The notes under the pieces: model-generated | The model's input: only the letters and a program-made list of their open reading frames with translations | Database searches by the model: none | What the model was told of the DNA's origin: nothing | Shown here: piece by piece, positions 12,038-24,997 of the stretch | How positions within the stretch are numbered: the stretch's first letter is position 1 | Layout of the letters: each line of letters begins with the position of its first letter | Position numbers and translations under genes: made by a program | Virus record (IMG/VR): IMGVR_UViG_3300021376_000006 | Length of the DNA: 64,000 nucleotides | From: a virus | Taxonomy: Duplodnaviria; Caudoviricetes | Strand: one strand, 5' to 3'

Positions 12038-12039
12038 AT

Positions 12040-12534: not shown

Positions 12535-12539
12535 ACTGA

Positions 12540-12955: not shown

Positions 12956-12962
12956 TTTAAAC

Positions 12963-13040: not shown

Positions 13041-13043
13041 ATA

Positions 13044-13343: not shown

Positions 13344-13399
13344 AGTTGTCTCCTCAAATAAAACAACATTGTAACATAACAGTTGAATTTTGGTCAATC

Positions 13400-13474
13400 T
13401 GGTCCGGCGTGCAGGAATCGAACCCACATTAAGGGAGTAGAAATCCCCTGTATTATCCATTATACTAACGCCAG
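13400..13474 (-). tRNA. tRNA-Arg (TCT)
   Basis: Loop TTTCTAC, CCA. Confidence 0.92.
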
Positions 13475-13481
13475 TATAACT

Positions 13482-13558
13482 TGGTGGGCCGGGTGAGACT
13501 CGAACTCACTGTCCCCCGATTATGAGTCGGACGCTTATACCAATTAAGCTTCCGGCCC
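13482..13558 (-). tRNA. tRNA-Ile2 (CAT, probable lysidine type)
   Basis: Loop CTCATAA, GGGCC acceptor, anticodon arm resembles E. coli Ile2. Confidence 0.8.
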
Positions 13559-13564
13559 TGAAAC

Positions 13565-13650
13565 TGGTACCCGGGACCGGACTCGAACCGGTACGCCCTT
13601 TCGAACATCAAATTTTAAGTCTGAGGTGTCTACCATTCCACCACCCGGGC
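13565..13650 (-). tRNA. tRNA-Leu (TAA)
   Basis: Loop CTTAAAA, long variable arm, CCA. Confidence 0.95.
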
Positions 13651-13659
13651 ATTATAACT

Positions 13660-13736
13660 TGGTCGGAGTAGTAGGATTCAAACCTACGACCTTCCGCTCC
13701 CAAAGCGGATGCACTATCAGGCTGTGCTATACTCCG
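13660..13736 (-). tRNA. tRNA-Pro (TGG)
   Basis: CGGAGTA acceptor, loop TTTGGGA, CCA. Confidence 0.95.
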
Positions 13737-13966
13737 TTGTCTTCATCATCTTCATTTGAATTGATATAATCAATTACCCTACTGCGAGCTTCCGCTTCGG
13801 TCAAAGCCGGCAGCGTTATTGTTGCTACGCAATTTTTTATTCGAATGTCAAAAGGCACAACACCAGTAGGTAACCAACCTTCCTCCACAGGCACACTTAC
13901 GGTAAACTCCCGCAAGTTCATTAGCCTGTTGATTGTCTGTTCAGTTAGATCGCTAAATTGTGCCAT
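13727..13966 (-). CDS. Hypothetical protein (start reassigned to MAQFSDL)
   Basis: AAGGA RBS; the longer track ORF overlaps tRNA-Tyr. Confidence 0.65.
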   Translation of the reverse strand: MAQFSDLTEQTINRLMNLREFTVSVPVEEGWLPTGVVPFDIRIKNCVATITLPALTEAEARSRVIDYINSNEDDEDNGV

Positions 13967-13977
13967 AATATATCCTT

Positions 13978-14060
13978 TGGTGCTGGAGGTGAGACTCGAA
14001 CTCACGGAGGTTTCCCGACGGCTTACAAAACCGTTGCAATTGCCGCTATGCGACTCCAGC
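13978..14060 (-). tRNA. tRNA-Tyr (GTA)
   Basis: Loop TTGTAAG, long variable arm, CCA. Confidence 0.92.
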
Positions 14061-14069
14061 ATTAACACT

Positions 14070-14163
14070 TGGCGAAGAGTATTGGATTCGAACCAATGAT
14101 CCGGCTTTTGACCAGATGCCTTCTTAGCAGGAAGGTGCCTTCGACCAACTCGGCCAACTCTCC
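14070..14163 (-). tRNA. tRNA-Ser (GCT)
   Basis: Loop CTGCTAA, long variable arm, CCA. Confidence 0.95.
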
Positions 14164-14205
14164 ATTTGTTACTATTATATAGTTGAGCAATGGTCCTGTC
14201 AACAG

Positions 14206-14808
14206 TTACATCACAGGACCATTACCGTTCCGAAAGCCTATTGTACCACCTTCTGCTGTAATACGCTTGATCACATCTTCAAACAAGATAGGTGCAAAGT
14301 CTGTTTGTTCTACACAGACACAATGGTAGCGAGGATCAATACGCTCTCTGACTCCCCACTCCATAAATTCGGCTGTGCTACTGGCTCGCTGCATTACACG
14401 ATTGGCATGTAAGTGCCCGTGTATGTTAGTACCAAAACGACCCAAGCTATCTTCGTGAATGGGAATATGGCTCAGTATCATTCCGTTCATCACATGGTAT
14501 GCTCTGAGTTCACGGAAGTACTGTCTATATTCGTCATCGCGGAAGATGTCGTGATTGCCTCTTATAAGCACCTTGTCGCCGTTAAGACGTGCAAGTGTGC
14601 CAAGGCTTCGACGATTGATAACCACATCACCCAGGTGATATACTTTGTCGTTTGGTCGAACACGTTCGTTCCAGGCCTTGACCATAAACTCGTCCATTTC
14701 TGCAGGATCATCCCACGGACGCAGTTTGGTTACACCGTCATTACGCATGAAACGGCAAACGCCAGCATGCCCGAAGTGTGTGTCCGATACTAAAAATACT
14801 GCTGGCAT
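14206..14808 (-). CDS. Calcineurin-like phosphoesterase (phage type)
   Basis: SDTHFGH, YHLGD, GNHD, SHIP, HGHLH. Confidence 0.88.
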   Translation of the reverse strand: MPAVFLVSDTHFGHAGVCRFMRNDGVTKLRPWDDPAEMDEFMVKAWNERVRPNDKVYHLGDVVINRRSLGTLARLNGDKVLIRGNHDIFRDDEYRQYFRELRAYHVMNGMILSHIPIHEDSLGRFGTNIHGHLHANRVMQRASSTAEFMEWGVRERIDPRYHCVCVEQTDFAPILFEDVIKRITAEGGTIGFRNGNGPVM

Positions 14809-14822
14809 TGTATTCTCCTTAA

Positions 14823-14990
14823 TTATTTGTTAGCAGGTGTTAGCCTATCAGCATGCACCCAAGTATACCAGTTGAGGCCTAACACTCCAATCTTGACATA
14901 TTTTAGTCTTTTGCGTAGCACTTCCCCACGCAGAAATCCGTGAACACGATGCTTAAACAAAACCTGTTCACCTTTGTTATAAATTCTCAT
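14823..14990 (-). CDS. Hypothetical protein (55 aa, not in track)
   Basis: MRIYNKGEQVLFKHRVHGFLRGEVLRKRLKYVKIG...; AAGGA RBS. Confidence 0.55.
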   Translation of the reverse strand: MRIYNKGEQVLFKHRVHGFLRGEVLRKRLKYVKIGVLGLNWYTWVHADRLTPANK

Positions 14991-15002
14991 AAAATTTCCT
15001 TT

Positions 15003-15308
15003 CTATGCTACGAGCCACTCTTGTTTATCTCTATACTCGATGGATTCTGCTCCATCATACTCATGTATTTGAAATTCAGTACCTTGATCGATCCATTTAA
15101 TCACCAAATCGTCAAGGTCTCCAAAATACTCGTTAGGATATTTTAGTGCAAGATAATGTTCTATCTTGTCTATTTCCTCAGATTCGAGCCATTCGATTAT
15201 ACTAGGATCAAATAGTAATTCTTCGATCTGGTGCCACGAATACCACCCGGCTCCGTGCTCAGGGCTAAAAAGAACTGCTACTTTACCGTCGCGAACAAGT
15301 TTATTCAT
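15003..15308 (-). CDS. Conserved phage hypothetical protein
   Basis: DGKVAVLFSPEHGAGWYSW...EYDGAESI. Confidence 0.7.
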   Translation of the reverse strand: MNKLVRDGKVAVLFSPEHGAGWYSWHQIEELLFDPSIIEWLESEEIDKIEHYLALKYPNEYFGDLDDLVIKWIDQGTEFQIHEYDGAESIEYRDKQEWLVA

Positions 15309-15329
15309 TTTATCTCAACAATAGTAACT

Positions 15330-15500
15330 AACAAGGACCGTCGTTAGTTGAGTTTAGGGTCCGCCATTTCCATCCTGCGCTTTTCCTTGCCGGGATGCCA
15401 TGGTCAAGCTGCGGCTCTCTAACGCCGAGGGCTTGCCGTCTGCCCTCACTCACTGTCGCTAGTGTCACAGGGCACTATAGAGTCAGCCTGTGCTCTGACT
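15330..15500 (-). ncRNA. Candidate multi-hairpin ncRNA
   Basis: GC-rich intergenic; stems AGTCAG/CTGACT, GAGGGC/GCCCTC, CATCC/GGATG, GGACC/GGTCC. Confidence 0.45.
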
Positions 15501-15663
15501 ATGCTAGTTCTTCGTCCTCATCAAGGAAGAACTCATTGATGTGAGCCATGTCTGCTACATCATCCTCACTCATATACTTCAGGCAAGCCATAATAACAGT
15601 ATCACGATCTAAAAGACCGTCTTCAATCATGTCTAATAGTCGGTTAGTACATTGACGAGTCAT
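15499..15663 (-). CDS. Small conserved phage protein (start MTRQCT)
   Basis: AAGGAG RBS; LLDMIEDGLLDRD...CLKYMSEDDVADM. Confidence 0.7.
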   Translation of the reverse strand: MTRQCTNRLLDMIEDGLLDRDTVIMACLKYMSEDDVADMAHINEFFLDEDEELA

Positions 15664-15673
15664 TGTTATCTCC

Positions 15674-15988
15674 TTAGATAAATTGTAATTCTCTAGCCGG
15701 GTAATCAATGCGGCCATCAAACTCTAACTGATCACGCTCGAATTCAGTAAGGTAGTCATCGGCTACAATGTTAAAGTCAACAATGTGCTCACGGAAGTAC
15801 ACGCTGTCTTCTGCAATCTGGTCACGCAAAGCCATCACAGCCATAGTAACATCTTTACCTCGAAAATTCCGGACCACGTAATCGTTGCCGCCTTTGGACT
15901 TCCAATACTCAGGACACTCACCGGTACCGTCCCACGCATGGGCGCCATAGTTTTCGTAAACTTGGGTGGTGATTAGCAGCTTAGACAT
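15674..15988 (-). CDS. Conserved phage hypothetical protein (start MSKLL)
   Basis: GGAG RBS; ENYGAHAWDGTGECPEYWKSKGG. Confidence 0.7.
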   Translation of the reverse strand: MSKLLITTQVYENYGAHAWDGTGECPEYWKSKGGNDYVVRNFRGKDVTMAVMALRDQIAEDSVYFREHIVDFNIVADDYLTEFERDQLEFDGRIDYPARELQFI

Positions 15989-16017
15989 TTTGGCTCCTTG
16001 TTCTTCACTATACACAT

Positions 16018-16046
16018 ATTATAGCAAAATGGGCCATTATGGTCTA
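16018..16046 (-). promoter_or_regulatory. Sigma70-type early promoter
   Basis: TAGACC-17bp-TATAAT with TG extension; near-copy of 39774-39802. Confidence 0.75.
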
Positions 16047-16118
16047 CCAAAATAAAATGTTACAAGAATAGCAACACTTGTTGCTAGAATAATAATGTTG
16101 CTTTAGGGCAACAGAACG

Positions 16119-16192
16119 TGGAGCGGAGTAGGAGAATCGAACTCCTCGCTTTAGCTTGGAAGGCTAAGGTATTACCACTATACGAACTCCGC
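16119..16192 (-). tRNA. tRNA-Gly (TCC)
   Basis: Loop CTTCCAA, CCA. Confidence 0.95.
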
Positions 16193-16246
16193 AAATAATA
16201 GATACACAAAATTACAGTTTATAAATAAAATTACTTATTTTTATAT

Positions 16247-17026
16247 ATGCATACGGTCAATCATCAATTGTTTCAAAATTTTGATCATCTAGTAGATATC
16301 AAATCGCTAATAAAACTGAAACCTCTAGTTTCAGCTTTTATTGCCAAAAACTTTCAATACATTATACCAACAAAATTTGCTGCATGGTCATTTCCGCCGT
16401 CGCATCAGCACAAACAAGGTATAGCTGACGCTAACGCCAAATATATTAAAAATCTCAACGGTTTTAGCAGCCATTTGCAAAGTGTAATACAAAATCTAGC
16501 AGATACAGACTGCCTTGGATCTTTTTGCCTATTTGAAGAAGATGTAGTTTTATCTTCATTTAGTTTTAATGTGAGATACAACCTGCAAGGACTGCCTAAT
16601 AAACACCTTGCATCTTGCGTCGCTAAAAGATCGATTGACAGTGACTTTGATTTTTTTTACAACTGGTTAGATAATCAAAACATTTTTCAAGAATACGGTA
16701 GAGTGGTCTTTTTTATCAACTATCCCGGATCAAATCAGGTACCGCATTATGATCCTATTGACGATACACGTGACAATCAACCGGACGAATTTATATTAAT
16801 TAACTTCAATCCCAATCGTAAAAGATTATACTTGTTAGATGACACAAACAATAAAAAATACTATTCATATGGCTATGTAAATTGGTTCAATACTAACAAT
16901 TTCCATGGCGCAGACACTGTAGAATATGCATGTTACACGCTACGAATTGATGGCACTTTTTCCGATCAATTCAGACAAAAGTTTATGGCGGTCCCAAGGG
17001 GTAACGATCCCCTTCTTCAAGCGTGA
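16247..17026 (+). CDS. 2OG-Fe(II)/cupin-type oxygenase (Asp/Asn hydroxylase-like)
   Basis: HxD (PHYD), distal H (NFHGA), YTLRIDG; TATAAATA at 16220-16227. Confidence 0.6.
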   Translation: MHTVNHQLFQNFDHLVDIKSLIKLKPLVSAFIAKNFQYIIPTKFAAWSFPPSHQHKQGIADANAKYIKNLNGFSSHLQSVIQNLADTDCLGSFCLFEEDVVLSSFSFNVRYNLQGLPNKHLASCVAKRSIDSDFDFFYNWLDNQNIFQEYGRVVFFINYPGSNQVPHYDPIDDTRDNQPDEFILINFNPNRKRLYLLDDTNNKKYYSYGYVNWFNTNNFHGADTVEYACYTLRIDGTFSDQFRQKFMAVPRGNDPLLQA

Positions 17027-17060
17027 CAGGCTTGTGTGCGTCCATGAACACTTTGAGACC
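16986..17060 (-). tRNA. tRNA-Asp (GTC)
   Basis: Loop CTGTCAC, variant T-loop ATCGTTA, CCA. Confidence 0.9.
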
Positions 17061-17065
17061 TTGCA

Positions 17066-17142
17066 TGGCTGTCCAGGTAGGGATCGAACCTACGACACGG
17101 TGATTAACAGTCACCTGCTACTACCAACTGAGCTACTGGACA
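17066..17142 (-). tRNA. tRNA-Asn (GTT)
   Basis: Loop CTGTTAA, CCA. Confidence 0.95.
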
Positions 17143-17149
17143 ATAAAAC

Positions 17150-17225
17150 TGGTAGGAGGTGACGGGGTCGAACCGGCGACATCGGCCTTGTAAGGGCCGC
17201 GCTCTACCAACTGAGCTAACCTCCC
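17150..17225 (-). tRNA. tRNA-Val (TAC)
   Basis: Loop CTTACAA, CCA. Confidence 0.95.
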
Positions 17226-17227
17226 AA

Positions 17228-17512
17228 TTAAATATATCTATCAATATGTAGGCCTACAGCACTTGCTCGTTGAACCAATCTTTGTTCTCTAATACTTTCG
17301 CCAAATGCATACTGCCTTAAAAATTCTGTTTGTTTATTGTAGTCATAATTTCTTTGCAATCTTGCGGCTTCTTGTAAAGCTAACAAATTAGCCATTTCTC
17401 GCACTTTTTGCTCTTCGTTGTCCCTACGTTTATAATCATTGAGAACTTGAACACGCTGACCTATCATTTGATAGTCGTTTAAGTAAGCATGTGGTACACG
17501 ATATATAACCAT
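17228..17512 (-). CDS. Hypothetical protein
   Basis: ORF between tRNA and TauD-like gene. Confidence 0.6.
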   Translation of the reverse strand: MVIYRVPHAYLNDYQMIGQRVQVLNDYKRRDNEEQKVREMANLLALQEAARLQRNYDYNKQTEFLRQYAFGESIREQRLVQRASAVGLHIDRYI

Positions 17513-17520
17513 AATTTATA

Positions 17521-18390
17521 CTATAATTTACCTAAATTCACATTTGCAAAATCAAATGTGACTCTGTTCAATACTCGTTTGTTCATGCCTTCAAATTTCC
17601 AACGTTTATGAATACCCAACCACTGTTCGGCAATGACCACATCACCATCTTGCCAGTCGTGATGGTATATATATTTTTCTTGCAACACATGATCTCTTAG
17701 CGATTCTACAAGCTCACGACTTTGATCTTGTGTCATGCCAACAAAATTTCTAAATTGTAAAAAAGGAAAAAATAGTCCAGTTTGTTTACCTATATTGGTG
17801 TAGACCAGGTTAGGAGTGTAATGTTCATTAAAGTTTTCAGTAACCCCTGCTGCTTTACCAAAATCAAAATCACTGTAAGTGCCTTTTTTCCACCCACATA
17901 CCATCTTTAAATCTTTAATTTTATCAATCATTTGGTCATTAAGATCTTTGTAGGCCAAAATATTATTGGTCCAGCTGGTTCTTGAGCCGAACGTGGACTT
18001 GATACCACGCAACCATACCAATGGTTTACGATCGGGTTGAGCGGGTTGATTACAATGCCAGTCTAAATCGTCTACGTGTCCAAACAGTCCCGGTTCGCCA
18101 TGTTCATCAAGCTCACCTGTAACTCTTACCACTTTATAGTTAGTATCTTGAATAATTACATTTTTAAAAGGCGCTATGTCCTTAAGCGGAGTGAGGTCTT
18201 CTAACTCACCAAATCTACTGCATATATTTGCTTCATCTTGCGCTGTAAGATGATTTTGATTTTTGCATACCACTAAGGTATTTGTTGCCAACCAACGGGC
18301 AATTTGATTAATATCCGAATCTGACGCAGTTAAAAAATCAAAGTCATCTAAAATTACAGTCCATCCATTGTCATGTATTTTGTGTTTCAT
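17521..18390 (-). CDS. TauD/TfdA family dioxygenase-like protein
   Basis: LDWHCN, GSRTSW, HDWQDGDVVI, IHKR, LNRVT. Confidence 0.8.
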   Translation of the reverse strand: MKHKIHDNGWTVILDDFDFLTASDSDINQIARWLATNTLVVCKNQNHLTAQDEANICSRFGELEDLTPLKDIAPFKNVIIQDTNYKVVRVTGELDEHGEPGLFGHVDDLDWHCNQPAQPDRKPLVWLRGIKSTFGSRTSWTNNILAYKDLNDQMIDKIKDLKMVCGWKKGTYSDFDFGKAAGVTENFNEHYTPNLVYTNIGKQTGLFFPFLQFRNFVGMTQDQSRELVESLRDHVLQEKYIYHHDWQDGDVVIAEQWLGIHKRWKFEGMNKRVLNRVTFDFANVNLGKL

Positions 18391-18403
18391 AGTTTATCCA
18401 TAA

Positions 18404-18490
18404 TGGTGGGTGCTGATGGTAACGCTCCACGTGCCTTGACTTCCGTACCTTTAGCAATGGTTTTACAGACCACCGTACGGGGCAACACCC
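18404..18490 (-). tRNA. Atypical tRNA-like RNA, anticodon GTA, 8-bp acceptor, reduced D-arm
   Basis: GGGTGTTG/CAGCACCC-A-CCA; loop CTGTAAA; T-arm GTGG-AGCGTTA-CCAT. Confidence 0.65.
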
Positions 18491-18499
18491 ATTTAACAT

Positions 18500-18575
18500 T
18501 GGTGGAGATGACAGGACTCGAACCCGCTACCTATTGCTTGCAAAGCAACCGCTCTCCCAGCTGAGCTACATCCCC
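18500..18575 (-). tRNA. tRNA-Ala (TGC)
   Basis: GGGGATG acceptor with G3:U70, loop TTTGCAA, CCA. Confidence 0.95.
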
Positions 18576-20083
18576 AATATATATTTTCTACATTCTTCAA
18601 GTTCGGGTATATAATCACCCAACTTGCTGTTTCTTGCATGATCTAAAGCATCATTATACAAGAAAAAGTTTTTAAGTGCAACCAAATCGCACTCGGGTTT
18701 TTTGCTGTAATAATCGTATAATGAATCTATGGCTGTCTTATTTGATTTGCCATCTGTGTAATACGTTTTGGTTTGTTGACACTTGTTCATAGATTCAACT
18801 ACCATGTCATGATTGGGATGATTATACGCAGACTGAAAACCCACATGATTGATTTGCAAATAAATTCCAGCATGTGGAAATTCTTGGTCCAAGAATTCAA
18901 ATAACAAATGCAAATTTGTCACATTGTATATTCCTGGAACACAATTAATAGAAATAGTATGTCCATGTGATTCCAACAATTTGGTATTAGCAATCACAGT
19001 ATCCCAATCAGTACCCCAACGCCAATAATCATTGACTTGACCGTAGCCATCTAAACTGACACTGAAATTTAAATTTGTAAAGTGATTGGCCAAGGTCAAA
19101 AACTTTTTAGAAATTTTCACTGCATTTGTGCCCAAAGTAAAATCAAAATCAGTTTTACCTGCGTCAATACATTTCTGCATAAATTCATACACTTCGGGTA
19201 TTACAGTAGGTTCGCCTCCAGTAAGATATACTCTAACTTTTGGATTTAGAGTTTCTATGTCAATTCTGTCTAATTTGGAATACTTAAAGGTTTGCTCGCC
19301 TGGAAAAACTATATTAAATTTTTTAAATTCTCTATCAATCAAATGACTGTGTTCAGGTCTGCAACCGCGGCACATGATGTTACACTTGTTGCTCAATCTA
19401 ATTTCATAATAATACGGCTGTGTAATCTTCTCTAAATCTTCATAGGAATTTATATCCAGTTTTGCCAACCATTCTTTGGTTTCAAACTGCCTATAGCTTT
19501 CAATATTTTTGTCTTCGTAATAATAACAAGTCTCACAATTACTTTCTAATCTTTCTCCGCGAAGCATCTTTTCGCGCACTGCGACAAAATTAGGATCAGA
19601 TTTCCAATCAGTAAATTTGTCCCATGTGGTTACATGATCTCGCCCTCTTGAGCAGGTCAACATATAACCACTCTCTTCGGTAATTGCTATCCAAGGATAG
19701 ATACAAAAACTTTTGTTGTTTTCTATGCTGTTGAAAAATTCTAAAAAGTTTTTGACATTTTTGTTATTTCTAAAACTGGTATTATGACCCAATTTTTCTA
19801 ATTCCAACATAACCTTGTATGAAGATAGCAGCGGCTTCCAATGTGGCCATTGTTGTTTGGGTTGATCTAACAACACAATCAAATCAAATTGTTTTGCAAC
19901 GCTGACGATTTGTCCAAAAGACAAATCTAAAATACTGGTATGATAATACCCAGGTTCGGTTATTAAATCGTCGCTGGCGATCAGCCCGTTGTTTATACAC
20001 TTGTTTTGTTTGGCTAGAATTGTAGTTTTTTTATCTGTGTCATCAGAGTTAGTTCCGATGCACAATATTTTTTGATCAAACAT
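18566..20083 (-). CDS. Radical SAM protein with SPASM/twitch-like Cys cluster
   Basis: CNIMCRGC (CxxxCxxC), YLTGGEP, SVSLDG; upstream FCIYPW...C...CxxC. Confidence 0.88.
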   Translation of the reverse strand: MFDQKILCIGTNSDDTDKKTTILAKQNKCINNGLIASDDLITEPGYYHTSILDLSFGQIVSVAKQFDLIVLLDQPKQQWPHWKPLLSSYKVMLELEKLGHNTSFRNNKNVKNFLEFFNSIENNKSFCIYPWIAITEESGYMLTCSRGRDHVTTWDKFTDWKSDPNFVAVREKMLRGERLESNCETCYYYEDKNIESYRQFETKEWLAKLDINSYEDLEKITQPYYYEIRLSNKCNIMCRGCRPEHSHLIDREFKKFNIVFPGEQTFKYSKLDRIDIETLNPKVRVYLTGGEPTVIPEVYEFMQKCIDAGKTDFDFTLGTNAVKISKKFLTLANHFTNLNFSVSLDGYGQVNDYWRWGTDWDTVIANTKLLESHGHTISINCVPGIYNVTNLHLLFEFLDQEFPHAGIYLQINHVGFQSAYNHPNHDMVVESMNKCQQTKTYYTDGKSNKTAIDSLYDYYSKKPECDLVALKNFFLYNDALDHARNSKLGDYIPELEECRKYILGM

Positions 20084-20355
20084 TAATTTCCTAAATCTTT
20101 CGCATCAACACAAGTTCCGCCTTTAAAAACATATATGTCGGAATCTATGCGTATTTGTTCGAACACATGATTGTTTACACAGATATATGGATCCTTATGA
20201 TTTTCCATATAATAAAACGCACCATATCCTATACCCGCTAATACCATTAGTACGGGGATATATTTTAAATACTTCACAACTTCAGGCATAGCGCCTAAAA
20301 TTTGTGGCAAAAATTTGAGCAGGTCTTTCATGCTAGTATTTATTGGCACACCCAA
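20083..20355 (-). CDS. Small membrane protein
   Basis: One TM helix, two Cys in C-terminal part. Confidence 0.6.
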   Translation of the reverse strand: MGVPINTSMKDLLKFLPQILGAMPEVVKYLKYIPVLMVLAGIGYGAFYYMENHKDPYICVNNHVFEQIRIDSDIYVFKGGTCVDAKDLGN

Positions 20356-20419
20356 CCGGATTCGAACCGGTGTCGCCGCCGTGAAAGGGCGATGTCCTAG
20401 GCCTCTAGACGATGGGTGC
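20344..20419 (-). tRNA. tRNA-Glu (TTC)
   Basis: Loop CTTTCAC, CCA. Confidence 0.95.
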
Positions 20420-20421
20420 CT

Positions 20422-20583
20422 TTATTTTACTGCTCTACATTCTACTTGGATACGACTGTTTACTGCTCGTAATCTACGATCCCATGCCTGAGCAGATTCT
20501 GAAGATTTTTGCTGGGTGGCAAATTTTTCGTACACGGTAAAGTTTTCAGGGACTTGTATCCAGAATGCCAATATCCAAGGCAT
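20422..20583 (-). CDS. Small protein of two-Cys family (first Cys lost); start reassigned to MPWIL
   Basis: AGGAG RBS; hydrophobic N-term, FATQQKS...VEC. Confidence 0.55.
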   Translation of the reverse strand: MPWILAFWIQVPENFTVYEKFATQQKSSESAQAWDRRLRAVNSRIQVECRAVK

Positions 20584-20598
20584 AACAATCTCCTGTGA

Positions 20599-20673
20599 TG
20601 GTGCCTCTGGATGGAATCGAACCACCATCACAAGTTTCGTAGACTCGTATCCTATCCGTTGAACGACAGAGGC
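20599..20673 (-). tRNA. tRNA-Arg (ACG)
   Basis: Loop CTACGAA, CCA. Confidence 0.95.
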
Positions 20674-20675
20674 TG

Positions 20676-20834
20676 TATATTAGTAAGTGCTATAGGACCA
20701 ATTTAGACGTCCGGTGCTTCCGTGTCATAGCGTACAGTCGGTTATATCAGGACCTGTCCCACGCCGGTTAGGCCCGCATAGTGGCAGCGTCCTGCCACGA
20801 TACCCGCTTTTCATCTATAACACTTACTAATATA
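20676..20834 (-). ncRNA. Stem-clamped candidate ncRNA cassette
   Basis: 20-bp terminal inverted repeat (20676-20695/20815-20834); the only mismatch is G-U on the minus strand; GC-rich core. Confidence 0.6.
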
Positions 20835-21027
20835 TGCTTAGGCCACGCTTTTCCACGGTCGCCCCCAAGCTGGAGTTGTTGCCCTGTCCTTCCTGTTTAT
20901 TCTTCTGTCTGTGTGCAGTTAGGATTATGCCTATCAGAGTCTGAGGGCTTGCCTCGCTAACGGTCTTCTGCCACCGGATCTCTCTCGCTAATCAAACGCC
21001 ACTTTCAGGAAAGTGGTAACCGGAACC
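20835..21027 (-). ncRNA. Candidate structured ncRNA
   Basis: GC-rich, CCACTTTCCTGAAAGTGG hairpin; shares GGCAAGCCCTC and GGAAAAGCG with 15330-15500. Confidence 0.45.
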
Positions 21028-21291
21028 TTAACGAGCCCAAACAAGTGCAAACGCAACTGCTAGTCCGTTGTTAGCAAATCTATAAGTATCGCCTGAATCA
21101 AAATAATCATTGCCGCAGCGATATCCGTGATCCGAAAACCATTTTACAATAGCTTTATCTCTTTCTAACATTTTGTCGCGAACTTTTTATCTTGGAGCAC
21201 CAAATTCTGCTTCTTCTGCTTCCTTGACTAGATCAGCAAAAAATGGTTCACGATCTAACAAAACATTCAAATGAGGATATACTTGTTTCAC
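21028..21291 (-). pseudogene. 87-codon ORF with one in-frame TAA (21187-21189)
   Basis: GGAG RBS + GTG; MKQVYP...FGAPR*KVRDKMLERDK...YRFANNGLAVAFALVWAR. Confidence 0.5.
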
Positions 21292-21320
21292 GTGTACTCC
21301 TTGATCTACTATACGCAACT

Positions 21321-21444
21321 TTTATGAAACCGGAAATCAAATGCTAACAAGGAATTGCCTGTTACATGATACCGAAGGCAGTGCTGTATCAAACCCTTGC
21401 TTAACTCTATACAGAGACAGAACGCACATTTTCTGTTTTATAAA
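21321..21444 (-). ncRNA. Stem-clamped candidate ncRNA cassette
   Basis: TTTATGAAAC ... GTTTTATAAA, 9/10 inverted repeat. Confidence 0.35.
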
Positions 21445-21448
21445 CTGA

Positions 21449-21552
21449 TTATTTGTTAGTTGGTGCCCCTCAGTATCACCACCTTCCTAGGTTCCCGTGC
21501 GGGCTAGTTTGAGGTCAGTTATGTCTCACGAACAAGGTCGAATAACAAATAA
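21449..21552 (-). ncRNA. Stem-clamped candidate ncRNA cassette with internal ...GAGGGGCACCA
   Basis: Perfect 10-bp TTATTTGTTA/TAACAAATAA clamp. Confidence 0.45.
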
Positions 21553-21587
21553 AATTGTATAGTAGCACACTACTTCTTTTTGGTCTA

Positions 21588-21673
21588 CCATATTGAAACA
21601 CACTACCCTAGACAGCTACTTTGGGGCGGGCTGGCCGATACCGGGACACCGCTCGAAGTGTGCTTTAATATGG
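21588..21673 (-). ncRNA. Stem-clamped candidate ncRNA cassette fused to the CCA of tRNA-Leu
   Basis: CCATATTAAAGCACAC/GTGTGTTTCAATATGG 16-bp stem, GC-rich core. Confidence 0.55.
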
Positions 21674-21751
21674 TGCCCCAGGACGGACTCGAACCGTCAC
21701 CCGAAGACTGGCTTCTAAGACCAGCGTGTCTACCAGTTCCACCACCGGGGC
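21671..21751 (-). tRNA. tRNA-Leu (TAG)
   Basis: Loop CTTAGAA, variable arm, CCA. Confidence 0.93.
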
Positions 21752-21873
21752 ATTTGTTGTTAAATTTTTAATGATCGTTTACTGCACTATTTCATTATTA
21801 TACTTAATTGTTCTTTTTTGGTCAACTGTTTTATTATTGTTGCACAAATAGCAACTGTTGCTATTTTGTTAAC

Positions 21874-21948
21874 TGGTAGAAGCGGAGAGAGTTGAACCCG
21901 CACTGTACACCGTATGAAGGTGCTGCACTACCGTTATGCTACGCTTCC
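21874..21948 (-). tRNA. tRNA-Met elongator (CAT)
   Basis: Loop TTCATAC, CCA. Confidence 0.85.
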
Positions 21949-21949
21949 G

Positions 21950-22023
21950 TGATACCCGGAGGTGGGAACGATCCACTGTCGGTCGATTATCAATCGACTG
22001 CTCTACCACTGAGATATCCGGGT
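21950..22023 (-). tRNA. tRNA-Ile (GAT), encoded 3' end TCA
   Basis: Loop TTGATAA, variant T-loop ATCGTTC. Confidence 0.85.
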
Positions 22024-22033
22024 ATACAAACTT

Positions 22034-22108
22034 TGGCCGGTCCTGACAGATTCGAACTGCCGACAGCTGGTTTCGAAGACCAGAACTCTTCCACTGAGCT
22101 AAGGACCG
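22034..22108 (-). tRNA. tRNA-Arg (TCG)
   Basis: Loop CTTCGAA, CCA. Confidence 0.92.
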
Positions 22109-22875
22109 TATAAAAAATTGTTTACTCGTGCTGCAATATTTTTTTGAGTATTTTTCTTTGGTTCTGCTAACTCTGCGCCAAAATCAAGATTACGGTCATC
22201 AACTGTGTAAGTTTTGCGTAAATCTGTACAATCAATGTATTCATTAAGAAAATTCTCAAACTCAACATGATTGTTTTCACGGCACTGCCCAAATCTCACA
22301 ACAGCATAATCAATATTGTAGTTCTTTAATATTTTAATCAACAACTTAAAACTACGTCTATGAAACCGTGCATGCCACTTTCTGTCACGCAAAAAAGTTT
22401 TTTGCAGTGTTTCTTGTCTCAGTTTTTCTAGTGTTGGGTCTGAATTTGTCACGGTCAATGATTCAAAGTGATGTTTACGTCCTTGATACATTACAGAATA
22501 CGATAAGTGTGAAAATTCATAATCTGTAACTAATACTAAATCAGGCCTATTGTTAATTCTTAACCAATTAATCAATCTTCTACAATGACCAAAAAAATGT
22601 GCGCCGTTAAAAGATAAATTTGTTACATACCCGTTTATCATACTAGGCCAAGCCAATGACATTTCTTTGTGACGTACAAATTTCCATGCTTTAGATTCAA
22701 GAGAATCCAAATGTCCAACAAAATCATTTTGTTTTAAGCACCATTGTAGTGCAGGTTTAATTTGTTTATGATATCTTAAACTGAAAGTTCTAGGTTGTGT
22801 GTCGCCCATAATTTCATCAGACAAACAGTTATTGCCATTACTTTGGCAATCACCTAGTATCAAAATAGTTTTCAT
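22099..22875 (-). CDS. Hypothetical protein, weak SGNH-like N-terminus
   Basis: ILILGDCQSNG; late promoter TATAAATA at 22883-22890. Confidence 0.6.
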   Translation of the reverse strand: MKTILILGDCQSNGNNCLSDEIMGDTQPRTFSLRYHKQIKPALQWCLKQNDFVGHLDSLESKAWKFVRHKEMSLAWPSMINGYVTNLSFNGAHFFGHCRRLINWLRINNRPDLVLVTDYEFSHLSYSVMYQGRKHHFESLTVTNSDPTLEKLRQETLQKTFLRDRKWHARFHRRSFKLLIKILKNYNIDYAVVRFGQCRENNHVEFENFLNEYIDCTDLRKTYTVDDRNLDFGAELAEPKKNTQKNIAARVNNFLYGP

Positions 22876-22921
22876 GATTGAATATTTATAGAAATGTTAA
22901 ATTGCGCCAATAAATATCATC

Positions 22922-23437
22922 ATGTATTACACCAAAGTTCATATTGATAATCTTGAACAACTTCAACAATCAATATTAGATAAATTACCACCAGAAGCAC
23001 TGACTACTCATGGAGTTCTGCCAATGTGGTCTCAGCAGCTGATGCAGTTTGATGAGATAAAAAACATTATTCAAGAACTTGGTCTTGAATCTACTGCTTA
23101 CTGCGTTTGTATTGTCACAATGCAGCCTTGGTCAGAATTTCCAGTCCACATAGACAGCGGAAAAAGCCAGGCAGCGTTAAACATTCCTTTAGCAAATTGC
23201 AATAATACATTTACTCATTGGTACCAAAGTACACAGCCATTGATAGAATATCAACATCACGGTGATGGCAAATATTTAGGTGCTGATAAAAATCTATGCA
23301 CCAGAGTTGCTAGTTTAGAAATGACTGAACCTCATTTTATCAATATTGGTGCTTTACATAATGTTGATAACCCTAATAACAGTTGGCGTATACTTTTATC
23401 AATACGTCTTACCGATTACAACTTTAATTCACAATAA
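22922..23437 (+). CDS. 2OG-Fe(II)/cupin-type oxygenase (Asp/Asn hydroxylase-like)
   Basis: PVHIDSG, ALNIPL, LHNVDN, WRILLSIR; AATAAATA at 22909-22916. Confidence 0.65.
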   Translation: MYYTKVHIDNLEQLQQSILDKLPPEALTTHGVLPMWSQQLMQFDEIKNIIQELGLESTAYCVCIVTMQPWSEFPVHIDSGKSQAALNIPLANCNNTFTHWYQSTQPLIEYQHHGDGKYLGADKNLCTRVASLEMTEPHFINIGALHNVDNPNNSWRILLSIRLTDYNFNSQ

Positions 23438-23442
23438 TTTTG

Positions 23443-23518
23443 TGGTGCCAACTCTTGGGATCGAACCAGGTTCCATGCGTCTTCAGCGCACCGCAATGAC
23501 CACATTTGCTAAGTTGGC
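23443..23518 (-). tRNA. tRNA-Phe (GAA)
   Basis: Loop CTGAAGA, CCA. Confidence 0.92.
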
Positions 23519-23519
23519 T

Positions 23520-23594
23520 TGGGGTATCCGACCGGGATCGAACCGGTAATACAAGATCCACAATCTTGGGTGTTACCTCTACACTACGGACACC
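23520..23594 (-). tRNA. tRNA-His (GTG)
   Basis: Loop TTGTGGA, G-1:C73, CCA. Confidence 0.93.
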
Positions 23595-23600
23595 ATTTAA

Positions 23601-23675
23601 TGGTAGGGGATGAGGGATTCGAACCCCCGAATGACGGAATCAAAATCCGCTGTCTTACCACTTGACGAATCCCCA
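23601..23675 (-). tRNA. tRNA-Gln (TTG)
   Basis: Loop TTTTGAT, CCA. Confidence 0.93.
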
Positions 23676-23676
23676 A

Positions 23677-23826
23677 TTAACTTGGTATTACTTTTGGAAT
23701 GTATGGTACGTTCCTGGGCCCATGGCGCTGTTCAAACAACACGCGAGCTTCTTGCAAATCCTTTGCGTACACACGATCTTTAGTGTCACCTTGCGGTGTT
23801 CTTACTGTAGTTTCATACATTGGCAT
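23677..23826 (-). CDS. Hypothetical protein (49 aa, not in track)
   Basis: AAGGAG RBS; MPMYETTVRTPQGDTKDRVYAKDLQEARVLFEQRHG. Confidence 0.65.
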   Translation of the reverse strand: MPMYETTVRTPQGDTKDRVYAKDLQEARVLFEQRHGPRNVPYIPKVIPS

Positions 23827-23923
23827 ATCAATCTCCTTCAATCATATAGAAACACACTCAATACTATTATACGCCTGTGCCGTTTGAGTAAGCCATTAAT
23901 GTATAAGCGAATTTGTTTTCGTA

Positions 23924-23998
23924 TGGTAGGGGCACCAGGACTCGAACCTGGATAGATCGGTTAAAAGCCGACTATTCTAGCCTTTGAATTATACCCCC
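23924..23998 (-). tRNA. tRNA-Lys (TTT)
   Basis: Loop CTTTTAA, CCA. Confidence 0.95.
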
Positions 23999-24207
23999 AT
24001 TCTTACACCGTACAGTTGCCACATCATCGCTGCGAGCCGATGCTTGTTTTAAAATGTATAACCGTATCTTAATAAACCTATCTTATCACTCTTGTCACTA
24101 TCCATAACAGGATCTCCTATTTAAAATTTCTTTCTAACCACACCAACATACCAATAATGAATAATAATACAGTCACAGCCCCATTTTAGTCAACCTTTCA
24201 TAGTTAG

Positions 24208-24281
24208 TGGAGCGGGTAGCGAGAATCGAACTCGCAAATAATCCTTGGCAAGGATTCAGGTTACCTTTACATCATACCCGC
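24208..24281 (-). tRNA. tRNA-Gly (GCC)
   Basis: Loop TTGCCAA, CCA. Confidence 0.95.
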
Positions 24282-24287
24282 TCGGTT

Positions 24288-24382
24288 TGGTAGTAGGCCA
24301 GGGATTCGAACCCTGTCGTTCCAGCCCATCTGACCAGTCTCCACGGTTTATAAGTCCGCGCCGCATACCAATGCTGCCTACC
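24288..24382 (-). tRNA. Atypical tRNA, anticodon TAT (Ile), 4-nt D-loop, long variable arm
   Basis: GGTAGGC/GCCTACT-A-CCA; D-arm GCAT-TGGT-ATGC; loop CTTATAA; CAGGG-TTCGAAT-CCCTG. Confidence 0.75.
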
Positions 24383-24393
24383 ATAAAAATAGC

Positions 24394-24458
24394 GCATCCT
24401 TGTTCCTAAAATTATTAGGTAGGAATAGTTTACAAGACCTTCTGTTCATCAAGGATGC
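24394..24458 (-). ncRNA. Stem-clamped candidate cassette
   Basis: GCATCCTTG/CAAGGATGC 9-bp clamp with inner TTCCTA/TAGGAA hairpin. Confidence 0.35.
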
Positions 24459-24541
24459 ATGATAAAACACATTCTTGGGTGCCCGTAAAGACCATACCCA
24501 TGGCCTCGAGCGCCATTATGTGTTTGAATGTGCTTTATCAT
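24459..24541 (-). ncRNA. Stem-clamped candidate ncRNA cassette
   Basis: ATGATAAAGCACATTC/GAATGTGTTTTATCAT 16 bp with one G-U; clamp resembles 21588-21673. Confidence 0.55.
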
Positions 24542-24639
24542 TCCTATTTTACTCCTGCGTTTTCGCCGACAGTTTCATCCAGGGCTCCGCCCGTTTGGCA
24601 AGTTATAGTGTTGCCGCAGCCTCGTTCCGCATCACACTT

Positions 24640-24804
24640 TTAGCGTCGTTCAGTTAGACGTCGCATTCGTTCTGCATCTTCATTTTGTTGACGCAGCCTT
24701 TCAATTTTACCTTTAACTAATTGTTCAAGCAATCTATCGTTAAAAACAAAATTACGCTCTTCTAACTTTTTTTGAAACGACACGATTTCTTTTTTGTTCG
24801 TCAT
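24640..24804 (-). CDS. Basic coiled-coil peptide (54 aa, not in track), first ORF after the attenuator
   Basis: AAGGA RBS; MTNKKEIVSFQKKLEERNFVFNDRLLEQLVKGKIERLRQQNEDAERMRRLTERR. Confidence 0.6.
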   Translation of the reverse strand: MTNKKEIVSFQKKLEERNFVFNDRLLEQLVKGKIERLRQQNEDAERMRRLTERR

Positions 24805-24811
24805 CGGTTCC

Positions 24812-24852
24812 TTTATAAAACAAAACCCCAGGGTGTGTAGTCCTGGGGTTTT
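24812..24852 (-). terminator. Intrinsic terminator (attenuator 3:4 hairpin) upstream of the tRNA array
   Basis: AAAACCCCAGG-ACTACACAC-CCTGGGGTTTT-GTTTT. Confidence 0.85.
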
Positions 24853-24874
24853 ATAGAATTTGGTTAATTAAAAC

Positions 24875-24997
24875 TTAGGTTCTATAATCCCCCAGGACAC
24901 GATTACTAATATCGCGTGTAATCATACCCCAGTAGGCGGTTAGCCCACATTCGGGTTGTGATATAAACGATTTACATAATAGTGCTGAAATCATCAT
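24875..24997 (-). CDS. Putative 40-aa attenuation leader peptide
   Basis: MMISALLCKSFISQPECGLTAYWGMITRDISNRVLGDYRT; 3' end holds GTCCTGGGG, complementary to the terminator 5' arm. Confidence 0.65.
   Translation of the reverse strand: MMISALLCKSFISQPECGLTAYWGMITRDISNRVLGDYRT

What the first reader, a model, noticed from the sequence alone, without database searches (positions are those of the whole stretch)
20676..24541. Family of stem-clamped small-RNA cassettes embedded in the tRNA transcript
SEEN: at least six non-coding 65-160-nt units are each enclosed by a terminal inverted repeat: 20676-20834 (20 bp), 21321-21444, 21449-21552, 21588-21673 (16 bp), 24394-24458 and 24459-24541 (16 bp). 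In the three long clamps the imperfect pair is G-U on the minus (tRNA) strand, which supports RNA-level pairing. Two clamps share TAAAGCACA.../...TGTGTTT, and the tmRNA clamp has AAAGCA. The cores are GC-rich and unrelated to each other. KNOWN: RNase III cuts long AU-rich stems, and T4/T5 tRNA regions encode stable RNAs of unknown function. INFERENCE: a modular array of small RNAs released by processing, e.g. decoys for RNA-targeting defences or regulatory sRNAs.
Basis: partly seen in the sequence, partly recalled or inferred. Interest (0 to 1): 0.75.

Follow-up and report, generated by a model that had tools for sequence, protein, structure and literature searches.

The report
Hairpin-clamped small RNAs among phage tRNAs
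Between the tRNA genes of this huge lake phage lie small non-coding RNAs, each closed by a long stem; the stem type recurs in more than 120 uncultured viral contigs with a different RNA "payload" almost every time, and I found it in neither Rfam nor the papers I searched.

Summary
Four of the six units have real, conserved closing stems. These are U1 (20676-20834), U4 (21587-21674), U5 (24394-24458) and U6 (24459-24541). U2 is a conserved RNA, but its claimed terminal repeat is not conserved. U3 is unsupported.

U1 is a roughly 160-nt RNA found in 70 viral contigs and in none of 185,579 prokaryote genomes. It is 91% paired, and 36 of its 52 pairs show compensatory changes.

U4 and U6 belong to a "class-1" clamp family. 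The helix is about 19 bp with a sequence-conserved 13-bp centre (AUAUWRAARCACA / UGUGUUUCWAUAU). More than 120 viral contigs carry it.
- 49% of units start at the terminal A of a tRNA's CCA.
- 62% of tRNA-Lys(UUU) genes carry one.
- The 276 distinct units fall into 174 unrelated core clusters.
- Cores are swapped between close relatives, with breakpoints at the arms.
- At helix positions that vary, G.U outnumbers A.C about 5:1 on the tRNA strand, which points to an RNA-level helix.

There is no Rfam match and no match in 50,697 GenBank phage records.

The likeliest reading is a hairpin scaffold that releases, protects and tags diverse small RNAs cut from the tRNA precursor. Payload functions are unknown and expression was not tested.

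This scan had already noted the same hairpin family on another genome (e1-5379362). I reached it independently before reading that note.

The parts
20676..20834 (-). U1: a 159-nt structured RNA closed by a 20-bp helix. It ends 2 nt before tRNA-Arg(ACG).
   Evidence: z -4.5. Covariance model R1 finds 67 copies, 52 of them distinct. They are 91.2% paired, 36 of 52 pairs have double changes, 0 of 500 shuffles reach this, and slid controls give 33-41%. G.U outnumbers A.C 289 to 32 on this strand. Its motif occurs in 70 viral contigs and 0 prokaryote genomes.
21587..21674 (-). U4: a class-1 clamp unit. Its first 4 nt are the ACCA 3' end of tRNA-Leu(UAG), and its 52-nt GC-rich core has no relative.
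   Evidence: Both arms match the family consensus. A sigma-70-like promoter at 21825-21797 lies upstream of tRNA-Leu, with no terminator in between. The core has no homolog.
24459..24541 (-). U6: a class-1-type clamp (16 bp) enclosing 'core A'. Core A is two hairpins, one with a self-complementary apex and one with a conserved (K)UUACG loop.
   Evidence: z -6.5. Model R2 finds 12 distinct members, 92.3% paired, 12 of 28 pairs with double changes, 0 of 500 shuffles. In L028 the clamp keeps pairing through 3 compensatory changes around a wholly different core. The same core sits in the tRNA-Lys clamp of other phages.
24394..24458 (-). U5: a unit of a second clamp type (9-bp stem followed by GAUGAACAG) with a variable interior.
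   Evidence: z -3.1. There are 4 compensatory pairs against L015. L015 and L024 each carry two tandem copies with different cores, and L028 keeps only the bare hairpin.
21340..21439 (-). U2: a conserved RNA element.
   Evidence: Homologs at 76-91% identity in at least 13 loci. A consensus fold of 7 sequences shows some compensatory pairs. The single-sequence fold z is only -1.0.
21449..21552 (-). U3: unsupported as an RNA gene. It contains GGGGCACCA, a copy of the tRNA-Leu 3' end, so it may be debris of an old unit.
   Evidence: Fold z -0.97. No homolog in 1.85 Mb of related loci. A 10-bp AT-rich repeat of this kind is at chance level in the region.
23835..23927 (-). A decayed class-1 unit welded to tRNA-Lys(UUU). 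The 3' arm is intact and the 5' arm is mutated.
   Evidence: Its core is 78-82% identical to units in L224 and L168.
21671..21751 (-). tRNA-Leu(UAG). Its discriminator base plus CCA form the outer 4 bp of the U4 clamp.
20599..20673 (-). tRNA-Arg(ACG). Maturation of its 5' end by RNase P would create the 3' end of U1 (inferred).
   Evidence: U1 homologs also abut the next tRNA within 1-2 nt in L028 and L032.
24542..24640 (-). 'lead' RNA: a conserved structured stretch directly upstream of U6.
   Evidence: 87.6-88.5% identical in L015 and L024. Eight distinct homologs share a hairpin with an invariant AACGAGG loop and a covarying stem.
20835..21027 (-). X RNA: a conserved ~190-nt non-coding RNA directly upstream of U1.
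   Evidence: Alignment with L017, L024 and L028. Its 3' motif occurs in 17 viral contigs, all tRNA arrays. No Rfam match.

Best explanation
The units are small non-coding RNA genes built on a shared hairpin scaffold and embedded in the phage's polycistronic tRNA transcripts.

Shown:
- The two arms of each unit pair on the tRNA-strand RNA into a helix of about 19-24 bp that joins the unit's 5' and 3' ends.
- In the widespread class-1 type (U4, U6 and the relic after tRNA-Lys), the central 13 bp are conserved in sequence. Both ends of the helix covary.
- The helix often begins at the discriminator base plus CCA of the upstream tRNA, or ends at the next tRNA.

Inferred:
1. The unit is cut out together with the tRNAs. 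RNase P at the downstream tRNA would make its 3' end. An endonuclease would free the upstream tRNA's CCA: most likely RNase III acting in the two-turn helix, or otherwise the tRNA 3'-end machinery.
2. The remaining stem shields the released RNA from exonucleases.
3. The sequence-fixed centre, with its fixed wobble and mismatch positions, is a handle for a protein.

The loop carries the payload. Some payloads are conserved folded RNAs (the U1 core, the U6 'core A', U2). Most are specific to one lineage. Payloads are exchanged between phages by recombination within the conserved arms. What the payloads do is unknown. The strong link to tRNA-Lys(UUU) and the rapid turnover fit a role in phage-host conflict.
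For: Clamps are real and conserved:
- Stems and fold z-scores.
- U1: 52 distinct sequences, 91.2% paired, 15 of 17 clamp pairs covary, 0 of 500 shuffles, slid controls 33-41%.
- U6 family: 92.3% paired, 12 of 28 pairs with double changes.
- The U6 clamp in L028 has 3 compensatory pairs around a new core.
- The U5 clamp has 4 compensatory pairs.

The helix acts at the RNA level on the tRNA strand:
- U1 has G.U 289 against A.C 32.
- In class-1 units the +1 pair is U.G in 71% and never A.C. At variable positions G.U outnumbers A.C about 5:1.

The units must be co-transcribed with tRNAs:
- 135 of 276 distinct units start at the terminal A of a tRNA, and 97 are followed by a tRNA within 12 nt.
- 48 units span a whole tRNA-to-tRNA spacer.
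- The U4 transcription unit runs promoter, tRNA-Leu, U4 with no terminator.
- Only 2 of 276 units are followed by a U-tract.

The family is wide and virus-only:
- Only one genuine case in 185,579 prokaryote genomes, a 1.5-kb tRNA-array fragment in a MAG.
- None in GenBank phages.

Cassette behaviour:
- 276 units fall in 174 core clusters. The 63 units at the tRNA-Lys site fall in 51 clusters. The same core occurs after different tRNAs.
- In phages whose flanks are about 80% identical, the alignment breaks down exactly between the two arms.

Payloads are not mere filler:
- Core GC is 48.8% against 40% for the loci. Core-only fold z is -0.54 against -0.27 for controls, p = 4e-4.
- Core families are conserved with covariation.

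Placement is non-random: 73 of 118 tRNA-Lys(UUU) genes carry a unit, against 0 of about 100 each for His, Asp, Asn, Cys, Trp and Val.
Against: - Release, stability and the cutting enzyme are all inferred.
- No RNase III, RNA ligase or other RNA-processing gene appeared among the 20 window ORFs scanned. No partner protein is known.
- Inside the conserved 13-mer, about half of the units carry an A.C mismatch on the tRNA strand, which would be G.U on the other strand. Counted on the 13-mer alone, the two strands pair equally well.
- Most cores are singletons (120 of 174 clusters). On average they fold only slightly better than controls.
- One relative has lost the U5 core altogether, and the window's own tRNA-Lys unit is decaying. 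Individual units are therefore dispensable.
- About 120 of the 205 loci were fetched with the arm pattern itself. This inflates the apparent conservation of the arms. Searches used loci fetched independently of the pattern.
Confidence: 0.6

Rival explanations
1. Processing-only hairpins. The clamps are cis-acting signals (RNase III or other sites, or exonuclease blocks) that help mature the neighbouring tRNAs or mRNAs. The loops are functionless filler that drifts and gets replaced.
For: - The arms are far more conserved than the cores, and 120 of 174 core clusters are singletons.
- Cores fold only marginally better than controls.
- U5 in L028 is reduced to a bare hairpin.
- The 3' arm survives in the window's decayed tRNA-Lys unit, directly upstream of a ribosome-binding site.
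- Many units fill exactly one tRNA-to-tRNA spacer.
Against: - Filler loops should shrink, yet cores have a median of about 46 nt, reach up to 216 nt, and are GC-enriched (48.8% against 40%).
- Several core families are conserved across diverged phages, in different clamps and at different positions, with compensatory changes.
- About half of the units are not next to any tRNA end.
Confidence: 0.2
2. DNA-level selfish or recombination modules. The units are miniature inverted-repeat elements (MITE- or REPIN-like), or portable homology blocks like the PeSLs of T4-type phages. On this view the arms matter as DNA, and the RNA hairpin is a by-product.
For: - The inverted arms are conserved in sequence.
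- Presence or absence differs at syntenic sites. U1 is absent in L017, and U2-U4 are absent in L024.
- The same unit occurs behind different tRNAs.
- Core replacement has its breakpoints at the arms.
- PeSL motifs are documented to mediate modular shuffling in T4-type phages (PMC2839356, PMC4122927).
Against: - Strand asymmetry: G.U greatly outnumbers A.C on the tRNA strand at variable positions, and the +1 pair is U.G in 71% and A.C in 0%. DNA-level selection would not produce this.
- The outer and inner ends of the helix covary rather than keeping a fixed terminal sequence.
- I saw no target-site duplications and no transposase near the units.
- The two readings are not exclusive. The arms probably do serve as recombination substrates as well.
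Confidence: 0.15
3. Chance hairpins in AT-rich intergenic DNA, or unannotated small protein genes.
For: - U3 and the terminal stem of U2 are at chance level.
- U6 begins with an ATG that opens a 30-codon frame.
Against: - The covariation statistics for U1 and U6.
- Hundreds of homologous units in other phages.
- The U6 reading frame is broken by a 2-nt indel in L015 and replaced in L028.
Confidence: 0.03

Closest known systems
Phage T4 RNAC and RNAD (species 1 and 2 RNAs)
   Same: They are small non-coding RNAs encoded in a phage tRNA cluster, directly next to a tRNA gene. Their roles are still unknown (PMC3014915, PMC9697503; T4 annotation). RNAC carries a T-arm next to its 3' strand, as do 24 of 276 class-1 cores.
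   Different: There is no sequence or structure homology: model R1 finds nothing in the T4 tRNA region. The T4 RNAs lack a long sequence-conserved closing helix, are not built on a repeated scaffold, and have no swappable cores.
Leader-trailer helices of pre-rRNA and phage T7 RNase III sites
   Same: Sequences flanking a mature RNA pair into a long helix that holds its ends together and is cut to release it (PMC11404451, PMC10250234). The roughly 19-24-bp length fits the two-turn substrate of RNase III (that figure is from my own knowledge).
   Different: Here the helix encloses 30-200-nt payloads rather than rRNA. Its centre is conserved in sequence across unrelated payloads, and it is often fused to a tRNA's CCA end. 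Cleavage by RNase III was not tested.
tRNA-linked non-coding RNAs released by tRNA processing (E. coli 3'ETS-leuZ sponge; MHV68 tRNA-like/pre-miRNA units; plant tRNA-snoRNA genes)
   Same: A functional small RNA, in MHV68 a hairpin, sits directly 3' of a tRNA or tRNA-like gene and is freed by the tRNA maturation enzymes (PMC3534370 for MHV68; 10.1101/2021.04.25.441314 and PMC6191717 mention 3'ETS-leuZ; the rest is from my own knowledge).
   Different: Those are single, fixed RNAs. Here one scaffold carries more than 170 unrelated payloads, and its stem base-pairs with the tRNA's own ACCA.
PeSL promoter/stem-loop motifs of T4-type phages
   Same: They are short conserved repeated motifs scattered through variable regions, and they act as breakpoints for modular exchange between phages (PMC2839356, PMC4122927).
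   Different: PeSLs flank protein-coding ORFs and combine a promoter with a terminator. The clamps here enclose non-coding cores, lack U-tracts, and show RNA-strand-specific wobble pairs.
Intervening segment of circularly permuted two-piece tmRNA genes
   Same: It is a stretch that begins right after an encoded CCA and ends at the 5' end of the next RNA piece, and it is removed by tRNA-type processing. This phage has such a tmRNA at 36420-36864.
   Different: The tmRNA helix here has no class-1 arm. The intervening segment is discarded, whereas several clamp cores are conserved folded RNAs.

Membership tests
Any Rfam 15 family | A match to a curated covariance model | tested here: not met
   cmscan at E up to 10 on 20300-24900, and at E up to 1 on five related loci, gave only tRNAs and sub-threshold noise in the units.
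T4 RNAC/RNAD-type stable RNAs of phage tRNA clusters | Encoded inside a phage tRNA gene cluster, on the tRNA strand, adjacent to tRNAs | tested here: met
T4 RNAC/RNAD-type stable RNAs of phage tRNA clusters | Sequence or structure homology to RNAC or RNAD | tested here: not met
   Model R1 with filters off on the T4 tRNA region gave at best 11 bits, on unrelated hairpins. The T4 RNAs fold without a long closing helix.
T4 RNAC/RNAD-type stable RNAs of phage tRNA clusters | Accumulates as a discrete stable RNA during infection | not testable with these tools
RNase III processing helices (pre-rRNA leader-trailer, T7 sites) | A double-stranded helix of about two turns, formed by the sequences that flank the released RNA and maintained by covariation | tested here: met
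   Helices of 16-24 bp. In class-1 units the helix is 3 + 13 + about 3 bp. Covariation is shown.
RNase III processing helices (pre-rRNA leader-trailer, T7 sites) | Staggered cleavage by RNase III | not testable with these tools
   No RNA end data are available, and the host is unknown.
MITE / REPIN-type mobile inverted-repeat DNA | Terminal inverted repeats conserved in sequence, with copies at many sites | tested here: met
MITE / REPIN-type mobile inverted-repeat DNA | Target-site duplication and a cognate transposase (for example a RAYT) | tested here: inconclusive
   I saw no direct repeats at the U1, U4 or tRNA-Lys junctions. No transposase appeared among the neighbouring genes or the 20 ORFs scanned. 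The whole genome is not held.
MITE / REPIN-type mobile inverted-repeat DNA | No strand preference in imperfect pairs, because selection acts on DNA | tested here: not met
   G.U outnumbers A.C about 5:1 at variable positions, and the +1 pair is U.G in 71% and A.C in 0%. In U1 the counts are 289 against 32.
Intrinsic transcription terminators | A GC-rich hairpin followed by a U-tract | tested here: not met
   Only 2 of 276 units are followed by at least 6 T in 9 nt. No terminator call coincides with a clamp on the minus strand.
Integron attC cassettes | Conserved R''/R' core sites (RYYYAAC / GTTRRRY) and an integrase | tested here: not met
   The arm consensus is ATATWRAARCACA / TGTGTTTCWATAT. 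No integrase appears among the neighbouring genes.
Y RNA / YrlA | A match to Rfam Y_RNA or YrlA, and a nearby Ro60 (TROVE) gene | tested here: not met
   No Rfam match. No TROVE domain in the ORFs scanned, though only part of the genome was available.
Retron msr/msd | A non-coding RNA flanked by inverted repeats next to a reverse transcriptase gene | tested here: not met
   Inverted repeats are present, but no reverse transcriptase appears among the called neighbours or the scanned ORFs. Units number 1-8 per array.

The most novel reading that the evidence does not exclude
The class-1 clamp is a constant protein-binding handle, and the hypervariable loops are programmable payloads (guides, decoys or sponges). 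A phage or host protein would read them in a phage-host arms race centred on tRNA-Lys(UUU), Gln(UUG) and Glu(UUC), the tRNAs that anticodon nucleases attack. That would make it a new RNA-based counter-defence or host-targeting system whose repertoire is renewed by cassette exchange between co-infecting phages.
Probability: 0.15. Interest if true: 0.95.

Novelty: new variant of a known kind. Interest (0 to 1): 0.78.

Why it matters
Small RNAs encoded in phage tRNA clusters have been known since T4's RNAC and RNAD, and their roles are still unknown (PMC3014915).

This work shows that a large group of uncultured, often huge, lake phages builds many such RNAs on one shared hairpin scaffold. The scaffold is attached above all to tRNA-Lys(UUU), and its payloads turn over as fast as known conflict genes do.

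This yields:
- two covariance models (U1 and the U6 core) and a simple clamp motif that can annotate hundreds of unrecognised RNA genes in viromes;
- a defined, testable processing module made of a tRNA CCA end plus a 19-bp helix;
- a natural scaffold that could be useful for expressing stable small RNAs.

If the payloads prove to be decoys or guides, this would be a new layer of phage-host conflict.

Tried and rejected
- The window's whole genome is not held.
- Relatives through proteins were poor. The radical SAM gene gave only 42%-identity contigs without tRNAs. The 258-aa ORF gave nothing in viral contigs and only 2 loci in the single metagenome scan. Exact-protein look-ups and DNA motif scans worked instead.
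- The ten contigs of the same strain are 100% identical and carry no information.
- Known RNA families: no Rfam match.
- GenBank phages: only tRNA hits for the region, and none for class-1 units.
- Coding potential of U6: rejected, because the frame is not conserved.
- Hammerhead or box C/D reading of U5's UGAUGA: rejected. The motif varies (GGAUGA, GGACGA), there is no CUGA box, and Rfam is silent.
- Terminator reading: rejected.
- The complementary strand of the arms reads TGCTTTA, which resembles a T4 MotA box, and the arms contain TTGAAG/TTGAAA, which resemble a -35 element. No matching -10 element lies at the right distance in U4. I treated this as coincidence and did not test it further.
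- Cores as captured pieces of the phage genome: no match outside other units in 1.85 Mb.
- A partner protein by co-occurrence: no array gene tracks the units. The commonest, a 200-aa metallophosphoesterase, is in 48 of 204 loci.
- No RNase III, RNA ligase or Ro60 among 20 ORFs.
- A search for tertiary pairs in U1 gave one candidate (alignment columns 79:110), too little to build on.
- Structure prediction, complex prediction and the protein atlas were not used. No protein candidate justified a job.

Full report
**Context.** The window comes from a phage of about 338 kb found in lake metagenomes. An identical protein lies on a 337,915-nt contig and on JGI lake contigs. It carries 26 tRNA genes on the minus strand (11961-24281) and a permuted tmRNA. 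The finding covers the upstream third of this array. No Rfam family other than tRNA matches there, even at E up to 10. The one exception is a sub-threshold tRNA-Sec-like hit at 24291-24383.

**Checking the observation.**
- Three long closing stems are real.
  - U1 (20676-20834): 20 bp, fold z -4.5.
  - U4 (21587-21674): 17 of 18 pairs, z -3.0.
  - U6 (24459-24541): 16 bp, z -6.5.
- U5 (24394-24458) has a 9-bp stem with z -3.1.
- In the whole window, non-coding inverted repeats of this quality and spacing are only these three and the tmRNA helix.
- U2 and U3 fold no better than shuffled sequence, with z about -1.

**Relatives.** Protein-based searches gave few useful loci. Exact-protein look-ups of homologs of the 258-aa ORF gave syntenic contigs at 42-84% protein identity. 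Together these make 205 loci, 1.85 Mb and 2,672 tRNA genes.

**U1 is a widespread structured RNA.** Five diverged copies gave a consensus fold with 20 compensatory pairs.
- The covariance model R1 found 67 copies, 52 of them distinct.
- On that alignment 91.2% of cells are paired, 36 of 52 pairs show changes on both sides, and none of 500 shuffles reaches this. Sliding the partners drops pairing to 33-41%. The alignment is model-fitted, which flatters the numbers somewhat.
- In the closing helix, 15 of 17 pairs covary.
- G.U pairs outnumber A.C pairs 289 to 32 on the tRNA strand, so the RNA is read from that strand.
- The motif is absent from 185,579 prokaryote genomes and from GenBank phages.
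- In several phages U1 ends 1-2 nt before the next tRNA. RNase P would therefore make its 3' end (inference).

**U4 and U6 belong to a repeated clamp family.** An unbiased stem finder run on the relatives showed the same arms again and again.
- The arms are (ACC)AUAUWRAARCACA-YU ... AG-UGUGUUUCWAUAU(GGU).
- In 205 loci there are 309 units on the tRNA strand, 276 of them distinct, with 1-8 per array. The median length is 86 nt.
- 135 of the 276 begin exactly at the terminal A of a tRNA's CCA, so the tRNA's own ACCA pairs with UGGU. 97 are followed by a tRNA within 12 nt, and 48 fill a whole inter-tRNA spacer.
- Placement is far from random. 62% of tRNA-Lys(UUU) genes carry a unit, followed by Gln(UUG) 16%, Leu(UAG) 14% and Glu(UUC) 10%. 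His, Asp, Asn, Cys, Trp and Val have 0 of about 100 each.
- Two arm subtypes exist. The 'A' type goes with tRNA-Lys.
- Ascertainment caveat: about 120 loci were fetched with the arm pattern itself. The 88 loci fetched through X and U1 show the same picture, with 73 units of which 39 are anchored.

**RNA or DNA?** Inside the conserved 13-mer the evidence is ambiguous. The 3' arm is nearly invariant and the 5' arm varies between purines. This gives G.U at position 9 in a third of units and A.C at position 6 in half, so the two strands pair equally well. Outside the 13-mer the helix continues for about 3 bp on each side with varying sequence.
- There, G.U outnumbers A.C about 5:1 on the tRNA strand.
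- The first inner pair is U.G in 71% of units and never A.C.
- The outer pairs differ between units (ACC/GGU, AAUU/AAUU, CUGC/GCAG) but stay complementary.

This strand asymmetry, together with forced co-transcription with the tRNAs and the lack of U-tracts (2 of 276), points to a helix that works in the RNA. In the window, tRNA-Leu and U4 follow a strong sigma-70-like promoter (21825-21797) with no terminator between them.

**Cassette behaviour.**
- The 276 units fall into 174 BLAST clusters of cores, 120 of them singletons.
- The 63 units at the tRNA-Lys site fall into 51 clusters.
- The same core family appears behind different tRNAs, or unanchored.
- In four phages whose flanks are about 80% identical, the alignment runs through tRNA-Lys and the 5' arm. 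It becomes unalignable in the core and resumes at the 3' arm and the downstream gene.
- At syntenic sites, units come and go. U1 is absent in L017. U2-U4 and two small ORFs are absent in L024. L028 has an extra unit before U1.
- Cores match nothing else in the 1.85 Mb.

**Are the cores functional?** The evidence is mixed.
- Cores are GC-enriched (48.8% against 40%). They fold slightly better than length-matched controls: z -0.54 against -0.27, p = 4e-4.
- The U6 core ('core A') recurs in 12 distinct versions, both at the U6 site and inside the tRNA-Lys clamp of other phages. All three of its helices show compensatory changes (92.3% paired, 0 of 500 shuffles).
- It has a conserved (K)UUACG loop. 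The apex of its other hairpin is a self-complementary hexamer in every version, in four different spellings. That hints at loop-loop dimerisation.
- 24 of 276 cores carry a T-loop motif just before the 3' arm, like T4 RNAC.
- Against function: the core of the window's U4 has no relative, U5's core is lost in L028, and the window's tRNA-Lys unit is decaying.

**The other units.**
- U5 belongs to a second clamp type: ACACUYURG/CYAGAGUGU or GCAUCCUUG/CAAGGAUGC, followed by AUGAACAG. Its cores also vary, and some relatives carry tandem copies.
- U3 has no support.

**Mechanism.**
- Shown: the helix, its selection on the tRNA strand, physical continuity with the tRNAs, the exchange of cores, and the conservation of some cores.
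- Inferred: release with the tRNAs, protection of the ends by the stem, and recognition of the sequence-fixed centre by a protein. For release I expect RNase P on the 3' side, and RNase III in the two-turn helix or the CCA-end machinery on the 5' side.
- I found no RNase III or other RNA enzyme in 20 window ORFs. No array gene tracks the units.

**Comparison with what is known.**
- The nearest precedents are T4 RNAC and RNAD (PMC3014915, PMC9697503), which have the same genomic niche. They are not homologous and have no scaffold.
- Pre-rRNA leader-trailer helices follow the same logic of a flanking helix (PMC11404451).
- tRNA-linked non-coding RNAs include the MHV68 tRNA/pre-miRNA units (PMC3534370) and the 3'ETS-leuZ sponge.
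- PeSL motifs act as recombination breakpoints (PMC2839356, PMC4122927).
- Five literature searches for a prior account of such clamps found none. Two more searches only fetched papers on the comparison systems.
I reached the same family independently, and my results agree with it.

**Verdict.** This is a real and widespread set of phage non-coding RNAs that I could not find described. The processing enzyme and the biological role remain open.

Noticed in passing
window 20835-21027 (-): X RNA is a ~190-nt non-coding stretch with highly conserved 5' and 3' blocks. Its 3' motif occurs in 17 viral contigs, always inside tRNA arrays. It has no Rfam match.
   Followed up: partly
window 24542-24640 (-): 'lead' RNA lies directly upstream of U6. 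Eight distinct homologs share a hairpin with an invariant AACGAGG loop and a covarying stem, and a second hairpin GGGC-GGA-GCCC.
   Followed up: partly
window 24291-24383 (-): An unannotated long-variable-arm tRNA with anticodon UAU and an encoded CCA. ARAGORN misses it here but calls tRNA-Ile(tat) for its homologs in L017, L024, L028 and L031. Rfam scores it as tRNA-Sec-like at 32 bits, below threshold.
   Followed up: partly
window 23835-23927 (-): A decaying class-1 unit sits behind tRNA-Lys(UUU). The 3' arm is intact and lies 3-5 nt before the ribosome-binding site of the next ORF, while the 5' arm is mutated. This suggests the 3' arm may have a second role.
   Followed up: partly
window 21449-21552 (-): U3 contains GGGGCACCA, an exact copy of the 3' end of tRNA-Leu(UAG) 120 nt upstream. 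It may be debris of an older tRNA-plus-clamp junction.
   Followed up: no
window 14206-14808 (-): A 200-aa calcineurin-like phosphoesterase gene sits inside the tRNA array. It recurs in 48 of 204 related tRNA-array loci. It could be an RNA-end healing enzyme, but this was not tested.
   Followed up: no
A11 (U6 core family), hairpin 1 apex; window about 24495-24503: The apical hexamer is self-complementary in all 12 variants, with four spellings (GCCGGC, CUCGAG, CCCGGG, CUCGGG). This is a hint of kissing-loop dimerisation.
   Followed up: partly
related loci, e.g. L067, L035 (418-608), L203, L222: A larger core of 180-215 nt recurs inside class-1 or related clamps in more than 10 loci. It is another conserved RNA family that I did not analyse.
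   Followed up: no
window 18248-18349: A 17-nt, 94% complementary inverted repeat with a 68-nt spacer lies inside the TauD-like coding region. It is unexplained.
   Followed up: no
L110 (MAG contig labelled Candidatus Planktophila, 1,478 nt): This is the only genuine class-1 unit in the prokaryote genome collection. It sits in a 1.5-kb contig packed with 9 tRNAs. It is probably a mis-binned phage fragment, and at best a weak host hint.
   Followed up: partly
A6 (U1 family) columns 79 and 110: One extra covarying pair (G-C in 43 sequences, C-G in 8) links the loop of helix 5 to the 3' domain. It may be a tertiary contact.
   Followed up: no
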